Shown piece by piece: positions 24,770 through 54,968 of a stretch of 64,000 nucleotides of DNA. The stretch lies in contig NC_043000.1 in the NCBI RefSeq assembly GCF_006345805.1, positions 77,996,001-78,060,000 of the forward strand, in the 5' to 3' direction. Position 1 is the stretch's first letter. Each line of letters starts with the position of its first letter. This stretch comes from Octopus sinensis (Eukaryota). A model generated the notes under the pieces. It saw only the letters and a list, made by a program, of their open reading frames with translations, was not told where the DNA came from and did not search any database. The translations under genes were made by a program, and so were the position numbers.

Positions 24770-25309
24770 GTCTGTCTGTCTGTCTGTCTGTCTACCCCCC
24801 TCTCTATTATAAATATATATATATACACACACACACATAGATATGTATATATAGGCAAGCAGAGTTAACGGTTATAGTAACCGACTAAGAGATAAAAATA
24901 TCTGCAATTACTATCGGTATCAGTTACCTGGGCATGGGTATGCAAGCACACTATGCTCGTAGGGTACAGGTAACATCAGAATAACCCAAAGTTTATCAGG
25001 AGTCAAATTTAAATAATCAGAAAATGGAGAAAACTTTTGATCAACAACCAAACAAATTGGACCACTCTAGATTTTTTTTTAAACAAAACATAACATAACA
25101 TTTCTATGACAAAACAACTGTTACGGTCGTTTCCGCTTCCAATGCCAGTCGGTATTTATGAAAGAATTATGAAAATAAAATTTAAAGGAACATCTGCAGA
25201 TCCGAAGTGATGTTTCCCAAGTGACTAGATTGAAACATGTGTCGGCCTTTTAATGCTTATTTTAAAATTATATGTTTCTTTGATATTTTTTATATTCATT
25301 TATTTACTA

Positions 25310-26005
25310 TTGGGTAGGTGCATAATTACTGCGGCTTTTTTTTCAACAAATTTTATTCAGCAAAGACATCTTTAAATGATTATTCCGGAACATATTCACC
25401 ATCTACTTCAATTACTGCTTCCTATTTGCTAGGCAGACGGTCAGATCGTTATTTAAAGTTGTTTAAAACAATCCACGCAGGCAGAGAGTGAAAATAACGA
25501 AAATCAATAAAAAAAAGTTGTTTTTGTTAAATATTGTTATTGTTTTTTTTAATAGAATTTGTTGAAAAACAGCCGCAATAACTATGCACCAACCCAATAT
25601 ATATATAAGTTATAAGATGTATAAAAACATGTAAGATACAAATAAATATCTGTAAATATAAAACCATCCGAATTTCTGAGTACCCCATTTCTTCTAATAT
25701 AAAATATCTGTACATCATCTCCAAAACTTCTAATATATATATATACATTATAATTAGGGTTCAGCAAAGATTTGCTTTACCACATACCGAAGTTTAGAAA
25801 TAGCAGCCAAAAAACCTTAGCTATTTCTTCTACTTTAAAAAGGGACTCCCAGAAAAACCAAAATACTTGAAAATAATCCACGCAGGCAGAGAGGGAAAAT
25901 AACGAAAATCAATCAAAAAAGTTGTTTTTGTTAAATATTGTTATTGTTTTTATTGAATAGAATTTGTTGAAAAACAGCCGCAATAACAATGCACCAACCC
26001 AATAT
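25310..26005. mobile_element. Mariner-derived MITE ends mixed with HHR-family pLTR pieces and locally duplicated
   Basis: TIR TATTGGGTAGGTGCATAATTACTGCGGC (25310) pairs with GCCGCAATAACTATGCACCAACCCAATA at ~25598 and ~26004. 25467-25600 is repeated at 25872-26005. Confidence 0.65.
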
Positions 26006-26067
26006 ATTTTATTTTGCTTAACATGATACGAATAAAATAGGCATCCATAACTAAGTCTCTGTTTTGT

Positions 26068-26461: not shown

Positions 26462-27333
26462 CACTCCCTTCAGATACACACACACACGCGCGCGCGCACA
26501 CACACGCGCGCGCGCGCGCACACACACACACACACACATTCTCTCTCTCATTTTCTCCCCATTCATCACCCTATTGTACTATTTTATATCCCTCCCCGCT
26601 ACTACACACTCAATAGCACTATAAAATGGTCAAATTCTCTTCCCCAAGATCTTAGACCCCCCCCCTGGAGTAAACATCCTGACCAACTACAAAAGAAACA
26701 AGCAAAACAATTTTTTCTTCTTTCCTCTCTCCCTTTTCTCTCTTCCCCTCTTTTTCTTTAACAACCCTTCCAAATACAAAAACACACACACGCACACACA
26801 CGCACACGCACACACACACACACACACACACATGTTCTCTCTCTCTCTCTCACTTTCTCCCCATTCATCACCCTGTTGTACTATCTTATATCCCTCCCCA
26901 CCACTACACACTCAATAACACGATAAAATGGTCAAAACCTTTTCACAGGAACTTAGTTCGCTTTGAAAACCCCACTAGAATGGGAGAAAGCGCTAATATA
27001 TGATATATGATATAAGTTATAGGATGTATAAAAACATGTAAGATACAAATAAATATCTGTAAATATAAAACCATCCGAATTTCTGAGTACCCCATTTCTT
27101 CTAATATAAAATATCTGTACATCATCTCCAAAACTTCTAATATATATATATACTTTATAATTAGGGTTCAGCAAAGATTTGCTTTACCACATACCGAAGT
27201 TTAGAAATAGCAGCCAAAAAACCTTAGCTATTTCTTCTACTTTAAAAAGGGACTCCCAGAAAAACCAAAATACTTGAAAACAATCCACGCAGGCAGAGAG
27301 GGAAAATAACGAAAATCAATCAATATCTGGTCA

Positions 27334-27416
27334 CCCATGTACGCGCGTTTCGGATTTAGATCGGTATAAAGAATATAGAATTATACTTTACCAACCATTT
27401 TCTTCATCAGCATGGG
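27334..27416 (-). ncRNA. Minimal type I hammerhead ribozyme
   Basis: Minus strand: CCCATG-CTGATGA-a...cc-GAAAC-GCGC-GTA-CATGGG. Perfect 6-bp stem I, intact core and palindromic stem III. Confidence 0.85.
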
Positions 27417-27794
27417 ACTTCGGTATGTGGTAAAGCAAATCTTTTCTGAACCCTAATTATAAAGTATTATTTAAGTTTACCGTGAAATGGTCCTTTTTCA
27501 TGCCGAATTCTAGTTGGTGAAATTATTGATTACTTCTTAATTAATTAATTTTACCCTTTGTTATTATTGATAATAGAGTTTTCTCCCTGATAACAAACTA
27601 CAGATTTTTTCTGTAGTATTTTACTTGACGACACACGCGGATGGGCAGGGGGAGATGATGAACCTCATTCATATTTTAAATTCGGCGGTATTAACACTGA
27701 ATATAATCTGTCTGATACCGTTAGGTGGAGAGATATGTTCAATTATTCCAGTACCATCGAATTTAATATTTTTAATATTTGATATTGTTGGAGT

Positions 27795-27877
27795 CCCATG
27801 CTGATGAAGAAAATGGTTGGTAAAGTATCATTCTATATTCTTTATACCGATCTAATTTCGAAACGCGCGTACTTGGG
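27795..27877 (+). ncRNA. Minimal type I hammerhead ribozyme
   Basis: CCCATG-CTGATGA-aGAAA...TTTC-GAAAC-GCGC-GTA-CTTGGG, with one mismatch in stem I. Confidence 0.83.
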
Positions 27878-28159
27878 TGATCAGATATTGATTGATTTTC
27901 GTTATTTTTCCTCTCTGCCTGCGTGGATTATTTTAAAATATTTTGGTTTTTCTGGGAGTCCCTTTTTAAAGTAGAAGAAATAGCTAAGGTTTTTTGGCTG
28001 CTATTTCTAAACTTCGGTATGTGGTAAATTAAATCTTTGCTGAACCCTAATTATAAAGTATTACTTAAGTTTAACCGTGAAATGGTCCTTTTTCATGCCG
28101 AATTCTACTTGGTGAAATTATTGATTACTTCTTAATTAATTAATTTTACCCTTTGTTAT

Positions 28160-28204
<45 letters not shown>

Positions 28205-28325
28205 TTTTATATATATATTATATGTATATATTGTATATATATATATGTTATATATATATATATGTATATTATATATATTATATATATTATATATATATAA
28301 TTATATATATATATATATATATACA

Positions 28326-28991
28326 TAATTAATATCTTAGGGTAGCAAGAATGTTCATCGAAAAATTCTTAGTTACCAGTGGTCTAGCGAGAAAGAAAAA
28401 ATTAGTCAATAGACTATATATTATTCAGAGAAGAATACAGTGTACGTTCAAACACAAAAGAGATACTTTCGGAATTGCAACAATTGGTGGCTTGGAGTTT
28501 TAACTGCTCTTTCTAGCGAGTCAGATATCCTATTCTTCAGGTATCTATTTTGTGTTCGAACGTACACTGTATTCTTCTCTGAATAATATATAGTCTATTG
28601 ACTAATTTTTTCTTTCTCGCTAGACCACTGGTAACTAAGAATTTTTCGATGAATATTCTTGTTACCCTAAGATTTTAATTAATGATAAGATGTTTTTTGG
28701 CTAATTCTGGAAGAAAATCGGCAATTTATAATTAGTGCTGGTTGAGTTCTGCTTCTACGCGGTAAATTCGAAAAATTAGAACCTATAGTCACGTGGCAGG
28801 TTATTTATCGCTTCGTGCCTATATGTTCAGTCCTGGTAAACTACTGAAGAAGCAGCGTCAGATATAGACTGAAATTATTTTATTTCAGTCTGTATTTAAG
28901 TCTGCAGAAACCTTGCAGGATCTAGGATTAAGGTAAAAGTTTTTATTTTCCAATCACTTTCGGAATTACAACAATTGGTGGCTCGGAGTTT

Positions 28992-28996
<5 letters not shown>
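28326..28996 (+). mobile_element. HHR-bearing element (family B variant): ~491-bp unit, short terminal tandem, inverted 5' arm
   Basis: 28465-28506 is repeated at 28956-28996, and 28326-28465 is inverted at 28540-28684. HHR-like 28841-28925: CTA-CTGAAGA-aGCAG..long hairpin..CTGCa-GAAA-ccttgcagga-TC-TAG. Embedded in (TA)n. Confidence 0.75.
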
Positions 28997-31457: not shown

Positions 31458-32066
31458 TTCAACAATATTAAGGAATGGCCTTGATAGGCCATTCGATCCA
31501 CTAGAAAGAGCAGCTAAACTCAAACCGCTAAATAGTTGTAATTCAGAAACCAAAGGAAAATAAAAACATTTACCCTTATCATCTTTGGACTATGCATAGT
31601 TTCGACATACATATTGTGAAACCGATTTAATTAAATTAAATTTAATTTATTTGCCACTGGCTTGTCTCATCAGCAAGGAAGCCAGGGAAATATATATCCA
31701 CGAGACAACAGCATCGACGCCTCGAGAATATATATTCTAAATTTTCAAAATCTACCGTCACCGCGCCAACTTCTCGGCAGCAAATATAAACTGCTGATTT
31801 AATTTCGGAATTAGCCAAAAAATCATTAATTAATCAATATCAGGGTAGCAAAAAATTCAAGAGAAATTATTTCGCTACCAGCGGTCCAGTGAGAAAGAAA
31901 AAGTAGTCAACAGACTATATAATATACATTCAACAATATTAAGGAATGGCCTTGATAGGCCATTCGACCCACTAGAAAGAGCAGCTAAACTCAAACCACT
32001 AAATAGTTGTAATTCAGAAATCAAAGGAAAACAAAAACATTTACCCTTATCATCTTTGGACTGCAT
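31458..32066 (-). mobile_element. HHR-bearing element (family B): ~471-bp unit as a 1.3-mer tandem
   Basis: 31458-31597 is repeated at 31929-32066. Homologous to 54341-54805 and 28465-28996. Confidence 0.8.
31583..31678 (-). ncRNA. Type I hammerhead ribozyme with intact core
   Basis: Minus strand: ccTTG-CTGATGA-GACA...TGTC-GAAAC-TATGCATA-GTC-CAAag. Palindromic stem III ACTATGCATAGT. Confidence 0.85.
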
Positions 32067-36903: not shown

Positions 36904-36938
36904 ATATCGACCGGTTTCGCTATCGCTATTCATGATAT
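36904..36938 (-). ncRNA. Ultra-minimal hammerhead-like motif with A3-U8 core variant
   Basis: Minus strand: ATATC-ATGAATA-GC gata GC-GAAAC-CG-GTC-GATAT. Confidence 0.6.
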
Positions 36939-36939
36939 T

Positions 36940-37760
36940 CAACACACAACCCCAGAAACAGTGAGGCATTCAACACTATTGTGCAAACTGTCCCTTTACT
37001 AACTAGAGATCCAAAAATGAACGACATCCTGAAAACACACAAACTCATCAAATGCAAAGAACAAGACAAATCGCTAAAGAGACTACTAACAAATGCGAAG
37101 CTTTACAAAACAACCACGAAACCAACGGTTGAAAAATGTGGACGCCCAAACTGTGGAACCTGCCCCAACCTACTTGAAGGCTCGCATTTCCTTCTCAAAC
37201 AAGGACAGAGGTTCACAAAACTAGTTTCACCTGTGCCTCTGAGAACCTAATTTATGTAATAACCTGCTCGGGTTGCGATCATCAGTACATTGGACAAACG
37301 AGTATGACCTTGAGAAAGAGAATCACTCTACATAAGGAGCAAATCCGTTTCCCGCAATACAGACAAATTCCTCTCAGTGAACACATAGAAAAATGTGCAG
37401 GTAACATCAAACCAAATGTCACAGTCTTCCCTTTCTACCAGTGCAAAGACGCAATCTCTCAACTAGAACGTTTAAATAAAGAAACTTTTTTCATTGAAAA
37501 ATACAAAACACGTCTTAATATGCACGCATAACCAACTTTTATATTTTTACAATTTCCATTCACGATTAGATCACTGTACATAAATCCCCTACTAAACAAG
37601 GTTTTTTAAAACCTGTCTCTGTTCTGTACACATATTTAATCCCCACCCATTACCGAAAGCTGAGCAGTTATCTCCCTTACACACAACTATAACAATACTA
37701 ACAACCAATTACCTCCCTTTATTTATCTACTTGTGATAAATTTCATCACACACAACATGG
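36940..37760 (+). mobile_element. Penelope-like element 3' part (GIY-YIG endonuclease, Neptune-like)
   Basis: KCGRPNCGTC linker, then across a frameshift FTCASENLIYVITCSGCDHQYIGQTSMTLRKRITLH...RLNKETFFIEKYK. Confidence 0.85.
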
Positions 37761-38049
37761 ACCAACTTTCTTCTTAAGAAAAAGTATATACGCTCTTCCA
37801 CAGAAAGGAACACAGAAAGAAACAAGGAGAGAAAATAAAGAGAGAAAATAAAGAATATCTAGTGGCTAGCGATCTACCAACATCGGTTGACAAGCGATGG
37901 AGGGAGGACAAACACAGACACACGAACACACACACACACACACACATATGTATATAAATAAGGATAAGATCGTTATTTAAAATCCCGATCATATCAAGTG
38001 GCCAGTAATGTATATGTGTGTGTTTGTGTGTGTGTGTGGTGTGTGTGTG

Positions 38050-41601: not shown

Positions 41602-41737
41602 TTATATATATATATATATCGTTATATTTCGGAATGGTCATTTTGCCAGTTTAGCCAATAAAAACACACGCACTATATATTTGGTGTTATTTTGCTTCAG
41701 TGTTATTTATTTTTTACATTAATCTTAATCTTATTTC

Positions 41738-41782
41738 GGCCAGAGTTCTTTCGTCACACTCCTGTGACCGCATCAGTGGTCC
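41738..41782 (-). ncRNA. Hammerhead-like motif in PLE pLTR (variant core CUGAUGCG)
   Basis: Minus strand: GGACCA-CTGATGCG-GTCACA ggag TGTGAC-GAAA-GAAC-TC-TGGCC. Confidence 0.65.
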
Positions 41783-42149
41783 TTTGTTTTCTTCTTTCTT
41801 ATTTGTGTCTCTCCTTACTAACCGTCAGCCATTTTGTATTTCTATTGTATGTCTTCATTTGCGCATGCTTATATCTCTATGTGCGTTTATGTTTATTTAG
41901 TGTGTGTATGTGGGGGATGCCTGTAATATTTGGATCTTCTGTTTATATATGTTCATGTAATTTGTATTTTGTTTTTGTTGTTTTTGTTTATTCTTATTTT
42001 GTTCATGTGTTCACATCCACTAATTATTATCATTACATATGCTTGTATGTATAACAACAATACTATTAATAATAATAATAATCGAATCGAAAAAAAAAAT
42101 ATATATATATAAAAATATCTACATATATATATATAGATAGATATATATC

Positions 42150-42237
<88 letters not shown>

Positions 42238-42312
42238 GCACATATATATAGCTATTTATTTCTATTAGTTTATTTATCTGTGTATTTATTATGTTTTCAG
42301 GATCCTCTATTG

Positions 42313-42790
42313 TCATATGTTGTGGTGTGTGTTAGTGCTCCATTCTAGTTTTCTATTCAGGCTAGGTTTATTTTCTATTATGTGTGTAGCTTCTGTAATT
42401 TGTCTAATTGTTGCATCTGATCTATGTGTGGATAATATTTTAATTTCTATGTTATTGATTGATCCCCCGTGTTCTTGTTCGGCATGTTGGTACAGAATCG
42501 ATGTGCTTTTATCTTCCTTGAGTTGTCTCCAATGCCCATTTACCCGCTCTCCTATGCTTCTTGCCGTTTCCCCTACGTATGTCGTTGTCTTGTTACTGCA
42601 TCGTCCCTCTATACATCTTATACTATAGACTACATTTCTGGCTTTACAGTTTGTTTGTGGGCTAAATCTACATACAGTACAGTACTTATCCGTACAGGGG
42701 GTTCTACTAAAAGGATAGGTTCTACCAATTATAGATTTGATAGGGTTGCCTGGCTTTTCAACAACCTTAATTCTTAGCTTAATTTTGTCT
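42313..42790 (-). pseudogene. GIY-YIG endonuclease domain of PLE (open in the inverted arm)
   Basis: CTDKYCTVC, NVVYSIRC, YVGET, R..E..H and EA..I...PSLN motifs. The sense-arm copy has a stop at 43308-43310 and a 4-bp deletion. Confidence 0.88.
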
Positions 42791-43809
42791 GAATGAAGGA
42801 TTTGGGTTTTATTATTCACAATTTCTAGCCAGAGTTCGGTGTCTAGTACTATGCCAAACCAATGGCCTCAAAATACTTGACCACCGGAACTCAGCCATTG
42901 CGGACAATGCCAAATTCAATATCTTGATGGCAGACCTCGTCAGAATAATGAGAAACGTGTCACGCATGTGCGAGCCTACAGAGTTAAAGAGACACATACA
43001 ATATTTCATTCACCGCATGCAGTTCTCAGGTTACAGCCATAAAGAAAGGATCAGAGTATACAAAGGAGCCATTAAGAAATTTGATAATATATTATGTAAT
43101 GATAGGAATGGGATTTGCCCACTCTATAGGAACAAGTCATGGAACACTATAGAAAGGACAAAAAAGAAAATAGGGAAGGCCAACTCTTGGTATGATAGCC
43201 ATAAATACCAGAGTGTCATGTTCGTTGACACCACCCCTGGAGGTGAACTGGCGTACCGCTTTAGAAGGACCCTAGACAAAATTAAGCTAAGAATTGAGGT
43301 TGTTGAATAGTCAGGCAACCCTATCAAATCTATAATTGGTAGAACCTATCCTTTTAGTAGAACCCCCTGTACGGATAAGTACTGTACTGTATGTAGATTT
43401 AGCCCACAAACTGTAAAGCCAGAAATGTAGTCTATAGTATAAGATGTACAGAGGGATGATGCAGTAACAAGACAACGACATACGTAGGGGAAACGGCAAG
43501 AAGCATAGGAGAGCGGGTAAATGGGCATTGGAGACAACTCAAGGAAGGTAAAAGCACATCGATTCTGTACCAACATGTCGAACAGGAACACGGGGGATCA
43601 ATCAATAACATAGAAATTAAAATATTATCCACACATAGATCAGATGCAGCAATTAGACAAATTACAGAAGCTACACACATAATAGAAAATAAACCTAGCC
43701 TGAATAGAAAACTAGAATGGAGCACCAACACACACCACAACATATGACAATAGAGGATCCTGAAAACATAATAAATACACAGAAAAATAAACTAATAGAA
43801 ATAAATAGC

Positions 43810-43867
<58 letters not shown>

Positions 43868-44235
43868 AGATATATATCTATATATATATATGTAGATATT
43901 TTTTTAATTTATATATATATATATTTGTTTTCGATTCGATTTATTATTATTATTAATAGTATTGTTGTTATACATACAAGCATATGTAATGATAATAATA
44001 AGTGGATGTAAACACATGAACAAAATAAAAATAAACAAAAACAACAAAAACAAAATACAAATTACATGAACATATATAAACAGAAGATCCAAATATTACA
44101 GGCATCCCCCACATACACACACTAAATATACATAAACGCAGAGATATAAGCATGCGCAAATGAAGACATACAATAGAAATACAAAATGGCTGACGGTTAG
44201 TAAGGAGAGACACAAATAAGAAAGAAGAAAACAAA

Positions 44236-44279
44236 GGACCACTGATGCGGTCACAGGAGTGTGACGAAAGAACTCTGCC
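44236..44279 (+). ncRNA. Hammerhead-like motif in PLE pLTR (second copy)
   Basis: GGACCA-CTGATGCG-GTCACA ggag TGTGAC-GAAA-GAAC-TC-TGCC. Confidence 0.62.
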
Positions 44280-44460
44280 GAAATAAGATTAAGATTAATG
44301 TAAAAAATAAATAACACTGAAGCAAAATAACACCAAATATATAGTGCGTGTGTTTTTATTGGCTAAACTGGCAAAATGACCATTCCGAAACATAACAATA
44401 TCTGTTTCAACACACGACTTCACATAAAAAATCTTGCACAACAAATATTTAAACGTATAT

Positions 44461-44522
<62 letters not shown>

Positions 44523-54119: not shown

Positions 54120-54968
54120 CTTTTGTTCTTTTAATTGTTTCAGTCATTTGACTGTGGCCATTCTGGAGCACTGCCTTTTAGTCGAAGTCTAAAGTCTTTA
54201 TAAGTCTGGTGCTTACTCTATCGGTCTCTTATGCCGAACCGCTAAGTTACGGGGACGTAAACACACCAACATCAGTTGTCAATTGATGGGGAGTGAGGAC
54301 AAACACAGACACAAGCACACACATAAATAAATATATACTCTCAGAATTACAACTATTAGTGGTTTGGAGTTTAGCTGCTCTTTCTAGTGAGTCGGATGTT
54401 CTATTATAGCCATCCCTTATATGTTTGAATGTATATTATATAGTCTATTGACTATTTTTCTCTTTCTCACTTGACCGCTGGTAGCGGAGAATTTTTCTAA
54501 AATTTTTTGCTACCCTAAAATTTATTAATTAATGATTTTTTTGGCTAATTTTGAAATTAAATCGGCAGTTTATTTACTGCTGAGTAAACCGCGTGAATGC
54601 GGTGAATTTTGAAAATTTATAGCATATAGACTCGAGGCATGCTCGTTATCGCCTTGGCTTTTCTGATGATGAGTGCAACACCAGTGGTAAATAAATTTTA
54701 TTTTATTTTATTTATTTACATAAGATTGCCGAAACTATGCATAGTCCAGAAAGGAAAGGGTAAACGTTTTTATTTCTCTTTCCATTTCAGAATTACAACT
54801 ATTATTAAATAAATATATACATATATTCGACGGGCTTCTTTCAGTTGCCGTCAACCAAATCTACTCACGACGCTTTGGTCGGCCTGAGGCTATTGTAGAA
54901 GACACTTGCCCAAGGTGCCACACTGTGAGAGTGAACCCGGAATAATGTGGCTGGGAAGCAAGCTTCTT
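54120..54968 (-). mobile_element. SINE hosting two nested insertions (family B HHR unit and HAL1-like element); resumes at 56998-57033
   Basis: SINE 3' half at 54120-54320 and 5' half at 54828-54968, continuing as GAAGCAAGCTTCTTACCACACAGC at 56998. Confidence 0.75.
54341..54805 (+). mobile_element. HHR-bearing element (family B): ~446-bp unit with short terminal repeat
   Basis: TCAGAATTACAACTATTA at 54341 and 54787. HHR 54660-54752: TTTCTG-ATGATGA-GtGCAA...TTGCC-GAAAC-TATGCATA-GTC-CAGAAA (C3 mutated). Confidence 0.75.

What the first reader, a model, noticed from the sequence alone, without database searches (positions are those of the whole stretch)
27151..28163. Family A: 594-bp ORF-less unit with two HHRs on opposite strands
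Seen: the unit is repeated as a ~1.25-mer (27417-27568 = 28011-28163) and preceded by an inverted ~270-bp arm joined through an ACT microhomology. Both HHRs have an intact CUGAUGA/GAAAC core, a GUA site and a GCGC palindrome, and the minus copy has a perfect 6-bp stem I. Inference: a PLE-type insertion of a non-coding ribozyme RNA. A read-through transcript on either strand would carry one HHR and a long hairpin, a candidate ADAR or small-RNA substrate.
Basis: partly seen in the sequence, partly recalled or inferred. Interest (0 to 1): 0.75.

Follow-up and report, generated by a model that had tools for sequence, protein, structure and literature searches.

The report
Two-armed Penelope-style hammerhead retrozyme copy
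This is one decayed copy of a scattered, protein-free repeat that carries a predicted self-cutting RNA motif, and the mirror-image shape of its many insertions, whose two arms nearly always end at two different fixed points, suggests it is likely pasted in by a Penelope-type jumping gene's enzyme.

Summary
The anatomy is real: a 594-nt ORF-less unit, a 1.26-unit plus arm, a 270-nt inverted arm, a 3-nt overlap and two type I hammerhead motifs. It is one of hundreds of dispersed copies (654 exact hits to a terminal 20-mer; 69 to a hammerhead 20-mer). Copies have variable 5' ends and two fixed 3' ends about 100 nt apart, abutting (TA)n. In two-armed copies 58 of 59 classifiable pairs use one end each. 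No copy examined is attached to an RT ORF. This is Penelope (PLE) insertion anatomy on a non-LTR-retrozyme-type RNA, a known kind. The scan has already reported it on other families of this genome. Cleavage, circular RNA, transcription of this locus and the partner enzyme are not shown. Rfam does not recognise the motif.

The parts
27150..27419 (-). Inverted, 5'-truncated arm (unit 376-594 + 1-51); its 3' end is fixed site S1 (unit ~51), abutting a short TA run
27340..27410 (-). Type I hammerhead motif, minus copy: 6/6 stem I, long stem II, palindromic 2-bp stem III, predicted cut after 27340; one private stem II change
27417..27419 (.). 3-nt overlap (ACT) joining the two arms 5'-to-5'
27417..28010 (+). 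One full 594-nt non-coding unit, 33% GC, folds better than shuffles (z -5.0)
27801..27871 (+). Type I hammerhead motif, plus copy, predicted cut after 27871 (unit 455); private changes at 27829, 27858 and 27873; predicted to misfold
28011..28163 (+). Second lap (unit 1-152), ending at fixed site S2
28062..28163 (+). [quoted passage not shown]
28164..28325 (.). (TA)n microsatellite target on the right; a second hammerhead-type family starts just beyond it
25603..25916 (-). 99% identical local duplicate of 27010-27323 (left flank plus 174 nt of the inverted arm, no hammerhead)

Best explanation
This locus is one two-armed insertion of a dispersed, non-coding 594-nt repeat with a predicted type I hammerhead, likely copied into a (TA)n tract by a borrowed Penelope-like (PLE) reverse transcriptase/GIY-YIG endonuclease. 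Shown from sequence: two fixed 3' ends (S1, S2) about 100 nt apart, variable 5' ends, (TA)n targets, back-to-back arms that use one end each, and arms that run through the ribozyme cut site and past one unit length. Inferred: the enzyme cuts both target strands; each 3'-OH primes reverse transcription at one of two internal start sites on the RNA; the two cDNAs are joined through a few bases of microhomology. The template is likely a circular monomer released by two hammerhead cuts from a dimeric locus (about 50%), or else an uncleaved tandem transcript. This copy is likely a dead end: one ribozyme per strand, about 2% decay per arm, and the ribozyme predicted to be trapped in the duplex on read-through.
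For: Copy number: 654 exact hits to the S1 20-mer, 69 to a hammerhead 20-mer, 2751 to a 16-mer shared with sister subfamilies, all reversed controls 0. End rule: in set 1 (79 family loci of 129 unique) 38 are two-armed, with 30 S1+S2, 1 S1+S1, 0 S2+S2 and 7 with an end elsewhere (p 1.5e-8). In set 2 (58 new position-ordered loci) 35 are two-armed, with 28 S1+S2, 0 same-site and 7 other. (TA)3 lies within 16 nt of 90 of 108 S1/S2 ends, against 7% of window 16-mers. Arm junctions mostly overlap or differ by a few nt. 20 of 29 arms that reach unit 470 run past 440, with no pile-up at the cut. Lap-to-lap identity 95.6% equals arm-to-arm 95.9% (p 0.6); arms of different loci share 91.2%. Stem III is palindromic in 61 of 70 motifs, in three different sequences; stem I pairs in 178 of 222 cells, shuffled mean 154, max 169. 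Intact RT+GIY-YIG ORFs exist in the genome. PMC11167929 shows two internal RT start sites, cutting and extension of both strands, and AT-rich targets in vitro.
Against: No autonomous partner was found: no pLTR similarity in about 80 coding-PLE loci. Rfam has no hammerhead match, and the minimum-energy folds are not hammerheads. Both window motifs and 31 of 70 motifs have A.C in place of the G-C pair closing stem II (importance of that pair recalled). Core conservation within family A is only slightly above the unit average (3.9% and 1.8% vs 5.9% divergence), and only 18 of 58 complete motifs keep core plus full stem III unchanged. The stem I shuffle does not correct for relatedness and includes some mis-cut rows. 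Only 3 loci hold two same-strand hammerheads and no trimer is in the list. The partner arm is the best match in only 11 of 36 loci. The tail is about 100 nt against 30-40 nt in published PLEs. In Xenopus 8 of 9 predicted retrozyme dimers did not cleave.
Confidence: 0.8

Rival explanations
1. Ordinary truncated pLTRs of an autonomous PLE whose coding part was not reached by reverse transcription.
For: Same anatomy as coding PLEs, including one in this window at 41616-44475 with inverted arms, a one-sided tail and a hammerhead-like motif. Most arms are short: medians 132 and 212 nt.
Against: Long arms wrap around the 594-nt unit instead of entering an ORF. 62 one-arm upstream flanks share nothing, apart from 3 pairs, one of them a segmental duplicate. 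tblastn finds PLE ORF pieces in 13 of the 206 loci searched, none continuous with an arm by coordinates; the closest, L229, is separated by a TA run and starts mid-RT.
Confidence: 0.07
2. Same PLE-driven insertion, but the template is an uncleaved linear read-through of a young tandem source (possibly an unassembled array), and the ribozyme is dispensable.
For: [quoted passage not shown] Arms read through the cut site. A sub-lineage with an A.C mismatch closing stem II spread well.
Against: Stems covary and the palindrome persists across subfamilies 65-80% alike. The longest arm seen is 1020 nt, so linear copying alone would shrink arrays each round (inference). Laps within an arm are as alike as the two arms.
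Confidence: 0.35
3. A functional host hairpin locus: read-through RNA is edited by ADAR or diced into small RNAs and is kept for that purpose.
For: A 270-bp, 96% duplex is predicted on both strands, with about 260 long-range pairs. PLE-derived small RNAs are reported in rotifers (PMC3846280).
Against: Mirror arms occur at 73 of 137 family loci as a product of insertion. The arms have drifted at 11 of 270 sites, none an A-to-G change on the plus arm. A>G and T>C rates in 225 arms are equal (13.0 vs 11.7 per 1000, p 0.27); this tests the template RNA, not somatic editing of this locus.
Confidence: 0.08
4. The inverted arm arose after insertion by DNA fold-back repair or self-priming on an antisense template, as proposed in PMC3846280.
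For: Short overlaps at the junctions. The paper argues for this from junction palindromes.
Against: Fold-back copying gives no reason for the second arm to stop at the other fixed site in 58 of 59 cases. Many arms contain sequence that the partner arm lacks.
Confidence: 0.08

Closest known systems
Metazoan non-LTR retrozymes (PMC7229834, passages read; bioRxiv 10.64898/2026.07.22.740005, parts 1-3 of 5 read)
   Same: Non-coding, low-GC, structured unit with one type I hammerhead per unit. Size lies within the 51-972 bp range of the preprint. Short palindromic stem III, as in motifs that need dimers. PLEs are the proposed mobiliser.
   Different: Mostly dispersed sub-monomer fragments rather than arrays (at most about 1.7 units seen). 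About 50-nt stem II. RNA, cleavage and circles are unproven. No pLTR homologue was found, whereas 24 of 57 Xenopus families matched known TEs, nearly all PLEs.
EN+ Penelope-like elements: Poseidon PAc (PMC11167929, parts 1-2 of 4), Neptune/Naiad (PMC8557442, passages), Adineta Penelopes (PMC3846280, passages)
   Same: Partial tandem, inverted 5'-truncated copy, tail often at one end only, AT-rich or (TA)n targets, microhomology junctions, hammerhead upstream of the start sites.
   Different: No ORF. Tail about 100 nt, not 30-40. Start sites 190 and 291 nt after the cut, against about 90 in PAc. The published statement is qualitative ('often'); here it is 58 of 59.
Non-autonomous Chlamys PLEs such as MRC1 (PMC8557442, passage)
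   Same: Non-coding PLE derivatives forming pLTR-like and tandem insertions.
   Different: Chlamys lack canonical hammerheads, and the non-autonomous ones resemble their autonomous partners at the 3' end; no such resemblance was found here.

Membership tests
Non-LTR retrozyme | Type I hammerhead motif in the unit | tested here: met
   Core, stems and covariation across subfamilies; Rfam does not match it
Non-LTR retrozyme | No protein coding | tested here: met
   Longest Met-ORF 58 aa
Non-LTR retrozyme | Low GC, structured unit of tens to hundreds of nt | tested here: met
   594 nt, 33% GC, z -5.0
Non-LTR retrozyme | Family has tandem loci with two same-strand hammerheads | tested here: met
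   3 pairs among 69 hits, loci L002, L169, L287
Non-LTR retrozyme (active copy, Li et al. criterion) | This locus has two consecutive units with complete hammerheads | tested here: not met
   One per strand; the locus is a monomer derivative, not an active copy
Non-LTR retrozyme | Self-cleavage of the RNA | not testable with these tools
   Folding only
Non-LTR retrozyme | Expressed as linear and circular monomer RNA | not testable with these tools
   Only contig-level runs, RNA status guessed
PLE-mobilised element | Partial tandem plus inverted 5'-truncated copy | tested here: met
   73 of 137 loci two-armed
PLE-mobilised element | Two alternative 3' ends, tail at one end only | tested here: met
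   58 of 59 classifiable pairs; tail about 100 nt
PLE-mobilised element | AT-rich or microsatellite targets | tested here: met
   90 of 108 ends vs 7% background
PLE-mobilised element | Sequence kinship to the pLTR of an autonomous PLE | tested here: inconclusive
   None in about 80 coding loci, mostly Neptune-like; other clades thinly sampled
Autonomous PLE / ordinary pLTR | Attached RT + GIY-YIG ORF | tested here: not met

The most novel reading that the evidence does not exclude
One PLE enzyme dimer holds one circular ribozyme RNA and fires both internal start sites at once, one on each strand of a double-strand cut. That would make the PLE 'tail' and mirror ends the footprint of obligate two-site priming, and retrozymes its minimal rolling-circle substrates. 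This short non-coding family, with sites about 100 nt apart, would be a ready template for testing it.
Probability: 0.3. Interest if true: 0.65.

Novelty: new member of a known kind. Interest (0 to 1): 0.38.

Why it matters
How PLEs build their tandem and inverted ends is called open in PMC8557442, and the mobiliser of animal retrozymes is only proposed (PMC7229834; the 2026 preprint). This family links the two with counts. A retrozyme-type RNA leaves the PLE footprint, and the two arms almost never share a start site, which predicts a specific result in the existing PAc-type in vitro assay. The locus itself is an ordinary decayed copy, and the scan has noted the same pattern on several other families of this genome.

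Tried and rejected
Rfam: no hammerhead hit. RNA: no listed holder on record as RNA. Contigs of four guessed-RNA runs cover the family's terminal part more than its ribozyme part and show no joint at this locus's inversion; this is no evidence on expression or editing. Three runs of unrecorded kind, under three organism codes, hold many family-like contigs; no empty-site joint was seen, but TA repeats are skipped there, so polymorphism is untested. Partner search: Neptune-like and other GIY-YIG loci gave no pLTR match above shuffles. L071 and L229 looked linked but are separate insertions. My idea that the unit captured 50 nt of the nearby MITE was refuted: other MITE copies lack that piece. 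A linear cleaved monomer as template was rejected, since 5' ends do not pile at the cut. TSDs: 3 of 38 candidates, all microsatellite-like. One pattern was mis-specified and gave 1 hit. Earlier-finding look-ups by sequence, by nearby place and by words were blank. Whether the locus lies in a host intron was not tested; the ORFs of 90 aa or more in the window that I could recognise are transposon-like.

Full report
Observation. The sequence is as described. A 594-nt unit (27417-28010) runs on into a second lap to 28163 (96% to 27417-27568). An inverted 270-nt arm (27150-27419, 96% to 27792-28061) precedes it and overlaps it by three bases. Hammerhead cores lie at 27801-27871 (+) and 27410-27340 (-). 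The unit has no Met-initiated ORF over 58 aa, is 33% GC and folds better than 100 of 100 shuffles (z -5.0). Rfam does not match the motif, probably because stem II is about 50 nt long (inference). The two motifs are one motif copied twice.

Family. The window lies in a 2.72-Gb genome; an earlier scan note calls it an octopus, which I did not test. A DNA search gave 1753 first-look candidates, of which 40 were scored; the 39 best matches at other loci are 87-94% identical. Exact patterns gave 654 hits for the first fixed end, 69 for the hammerhead, and 2751 for a 16-mer shared with sister subfamilies, all with zero reversed-control hits. Most copies are therefore short 3' fragments without the ribozyme.

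Ends. Read on the ribozyme strand, copies end at unit ~51 (S1) or ~152 (S2) and begin anywhere. Set 1 was 146 loci with hits, 129 after removing 17 duplicates, 79 of them family A (at least 85% over at least 100 nt); it includes this locus and loci picked by similarity. It has 41 one-armed and 38 two-armed loci: 30 S1+S2, 1 S1+S1, 0 S2+S2 and 7 with one end elsewhere (p 1.5e-8 against a coin toss). Set 2 was 58 regions covering the places's first 100 not already held. It has 35 two-armed loci (28 S1+S2, 0 same-site, 7 other) and 23 called one-armed, of which L250 and L277 are complex and also contain a mixed pair. Together 58 of 59 classifiable pairs are mixed. With sister subfamilies included, set 1 gives 50 of 52. 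(TA)3 follows 90 of 108 fixed ends, against 11 of 40 5' ends of one-armed copies and 7% of window 16-mers. No credible TSDs were found.

Template. In 132 arms from position-ordered loci, 20 of the 29 that reach unit 470 pass 440, and stopping is no more frequent at the cut than beside it. A linear cleaved monomer is therefore not the template. Three loci span two cuts (L002, L169, L287), and the longest arm is 1020 nt. Laps within one arm (3482 of 3644 sites, 21 arms) are as alike as the two arms of those loci (1549 of 1615; p 0.6), and more alike than arms of different loci (91.2%). This fits one template per insertion, a circle or a young uniform tandem; it does not separate the two. The partner arm is the best match in only 11 of 36 loci, as expected if both arms have decayed since insertion. 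Both S1 and S2 arms stop most often at unit 496-545 (hazard 0.26-0.40); this is unexplained.

Ribozyme. Across 70 motifs of family A and its sisters, stem III is palindromic in 61, in three sequences of 6 or 8 nt. Stem I pairs in 178 of 222 cells of 37 distinct types, against a shuffled mean of 154 and maximum of 169 in 5000 shuffles (alignment). That control ignores relatedness, and some rows were mis-cut by the pattern. Against activity: 31 of 70 motifs, both window motifs included, have A.C where 24 have G-C at the base of stem II. Only 18 of 58 complete family A motifs keep core and full stem III unchanged; 45 keep the core. The window plus copy has private changes at 27829, 27858 and 27873, and needs 5.3 kcal/mol to adopt the hammerhead fold, against 0.9 for the minus copy. 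In a transcript of the whole locus the motif is paired into the long duplex on either strand, and its antisense copy is made first in both directions (from the coordinates).

Partner. The genome holds intact RT+GIY-YIG ORFs of 775-781 aa, several near-identical. They look Neptune-like by the cysteine motif before the endonuclease (criterion from PMC8557442). None of about 80 coding loci shares pLTR sequence with family A. PLE ORF pieces occur in 13 of 206 loci searched, none continuous with an arm by coordinates; the nearest, L229, was read and is separate. 62 upstream flanks are unrelated except 3 pairs.

Hairpin function. Mirror arms are the usual product here (73 of 137 loci). Substitutions in 225 arms show no strand bias (A>G 13.0, T>C 11.7 per 1000; p 0.27). 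Only contig-level runs were available, with RNA status guessed, so transcription, editing and small RNAs at this locus are untested.

Mechanism. Shown: the anatomy and counts above. From PMC11167929 (parts 1-2 of 4 read): a PLE protein cuts and extends both strands of AT-rich DNA, starts at two internal RNA sites that define the tail, is predicted to be a dimer, and does not need ribozyme cleavage in vitro. Inferred: such an enzyme acts in trans on this RNA, primes one strand at S1 and the other at S2, and the cDNAs join by microhomology. The ribozyme likely serves to release monomers from dimeric loci for circularisation, as shown for other animals in PMC7229834 (passages). That paper found little in vitro difference between monomer and dimer needs only for invertebrate motifs; short-stem-III motifs needed dimers.

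Comparison and novelty. It works like an ORF-less PLE, and the family meets the tested sequence criteria of non-LTR retrozymes; this locus fails the 'two hammerheads in tandem' criterion for an active copy. The one-sided tail and inverted copy are published qualitatively (PMC8557442 and PMC3846280, passages). Retrozymes as non-autonomous PLEs is the thesis of bioRxiv 10.64898/2026.07.22.740005 (parts 1-3 of 5; supplements not seen; no mollusc is named among its sampled groups). Searches listed no paper on an octopus hammerhead repeat or a count of the one-end-each rule; I judged most of those rows from listings only, and the library lacks most subscription papers. Earlier notes of this scan report the same pattern on other families of this genome; I had recorded it for this family first. 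Verdict: real, a new member of a known kind, useful as a test substrate; interest 0.38.

Noticed in passing
window 41616-44475: Coding PLE fragment (GIY-YIG, below Pfam cut-off) with the same anatomy: inverted arms, a tail of about 60 nt at one end, (TA)n flanks and a hammerhead-like motif with CUGAUGC core. No similarity to family A.
   Followed up: partly
window 28326-28996, 31458-32062, 54329-54803: A second non-coding family with inverted arms and hammerhead motifs at 31673-31588 (-) and 54663-54746 (+), with a 12-nt palindromic stem III. One fragment sits in the same TA tract as this insertion.
   Followed up: no
window 16868-16799 (-): Third hammerhead-like motif (CUGAAGA core, palindromic stem III).
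   Followed up: no
window 25308-26007: A common MITE with mariner-like ends (label recalled) holds a 50-nt family A piece that other copies lack, and is followed by a 99% duplicate of 27010-27323 and a repeat of the MITE's right part; likely a local template-switch event.
   Followed up: partly
family A, unit 496-545 (window 27912-27961): Hotspot where both S1 and S2 arms stop, 40-90 nt downstream of the ribozyme cut; transcription start, RT pause or favoured joining site.
   Followed up: partly
L209:174-3874, L218: Young, near-identical Neptune-like PLE with two ORFs: a 479-aa ORF with no Pfam match overlapping the start of a 781-aa RT+GIY-YIG ORF. Canonical PLEs are described as single-ORF.
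   Followed up: partly
L159:408-2760, L094, L162, L095: Sister subfamilies (65-80% alike) with tandem units of about 530-660 nt; L159 has five laps.
   Followed up: no
L050:1047-1454: One arm has its 3' end exactly at the predicted ribozyme cut (unit 455), as if primed from a cleaved RNA end; single case.
   Followed up: no
window 36936-37800: 5'-truncated Neptune-like PLE (GIY-YIG, PF01541 above cut-off) of a family with 17206 first-look candidates.
   Followed up: partly
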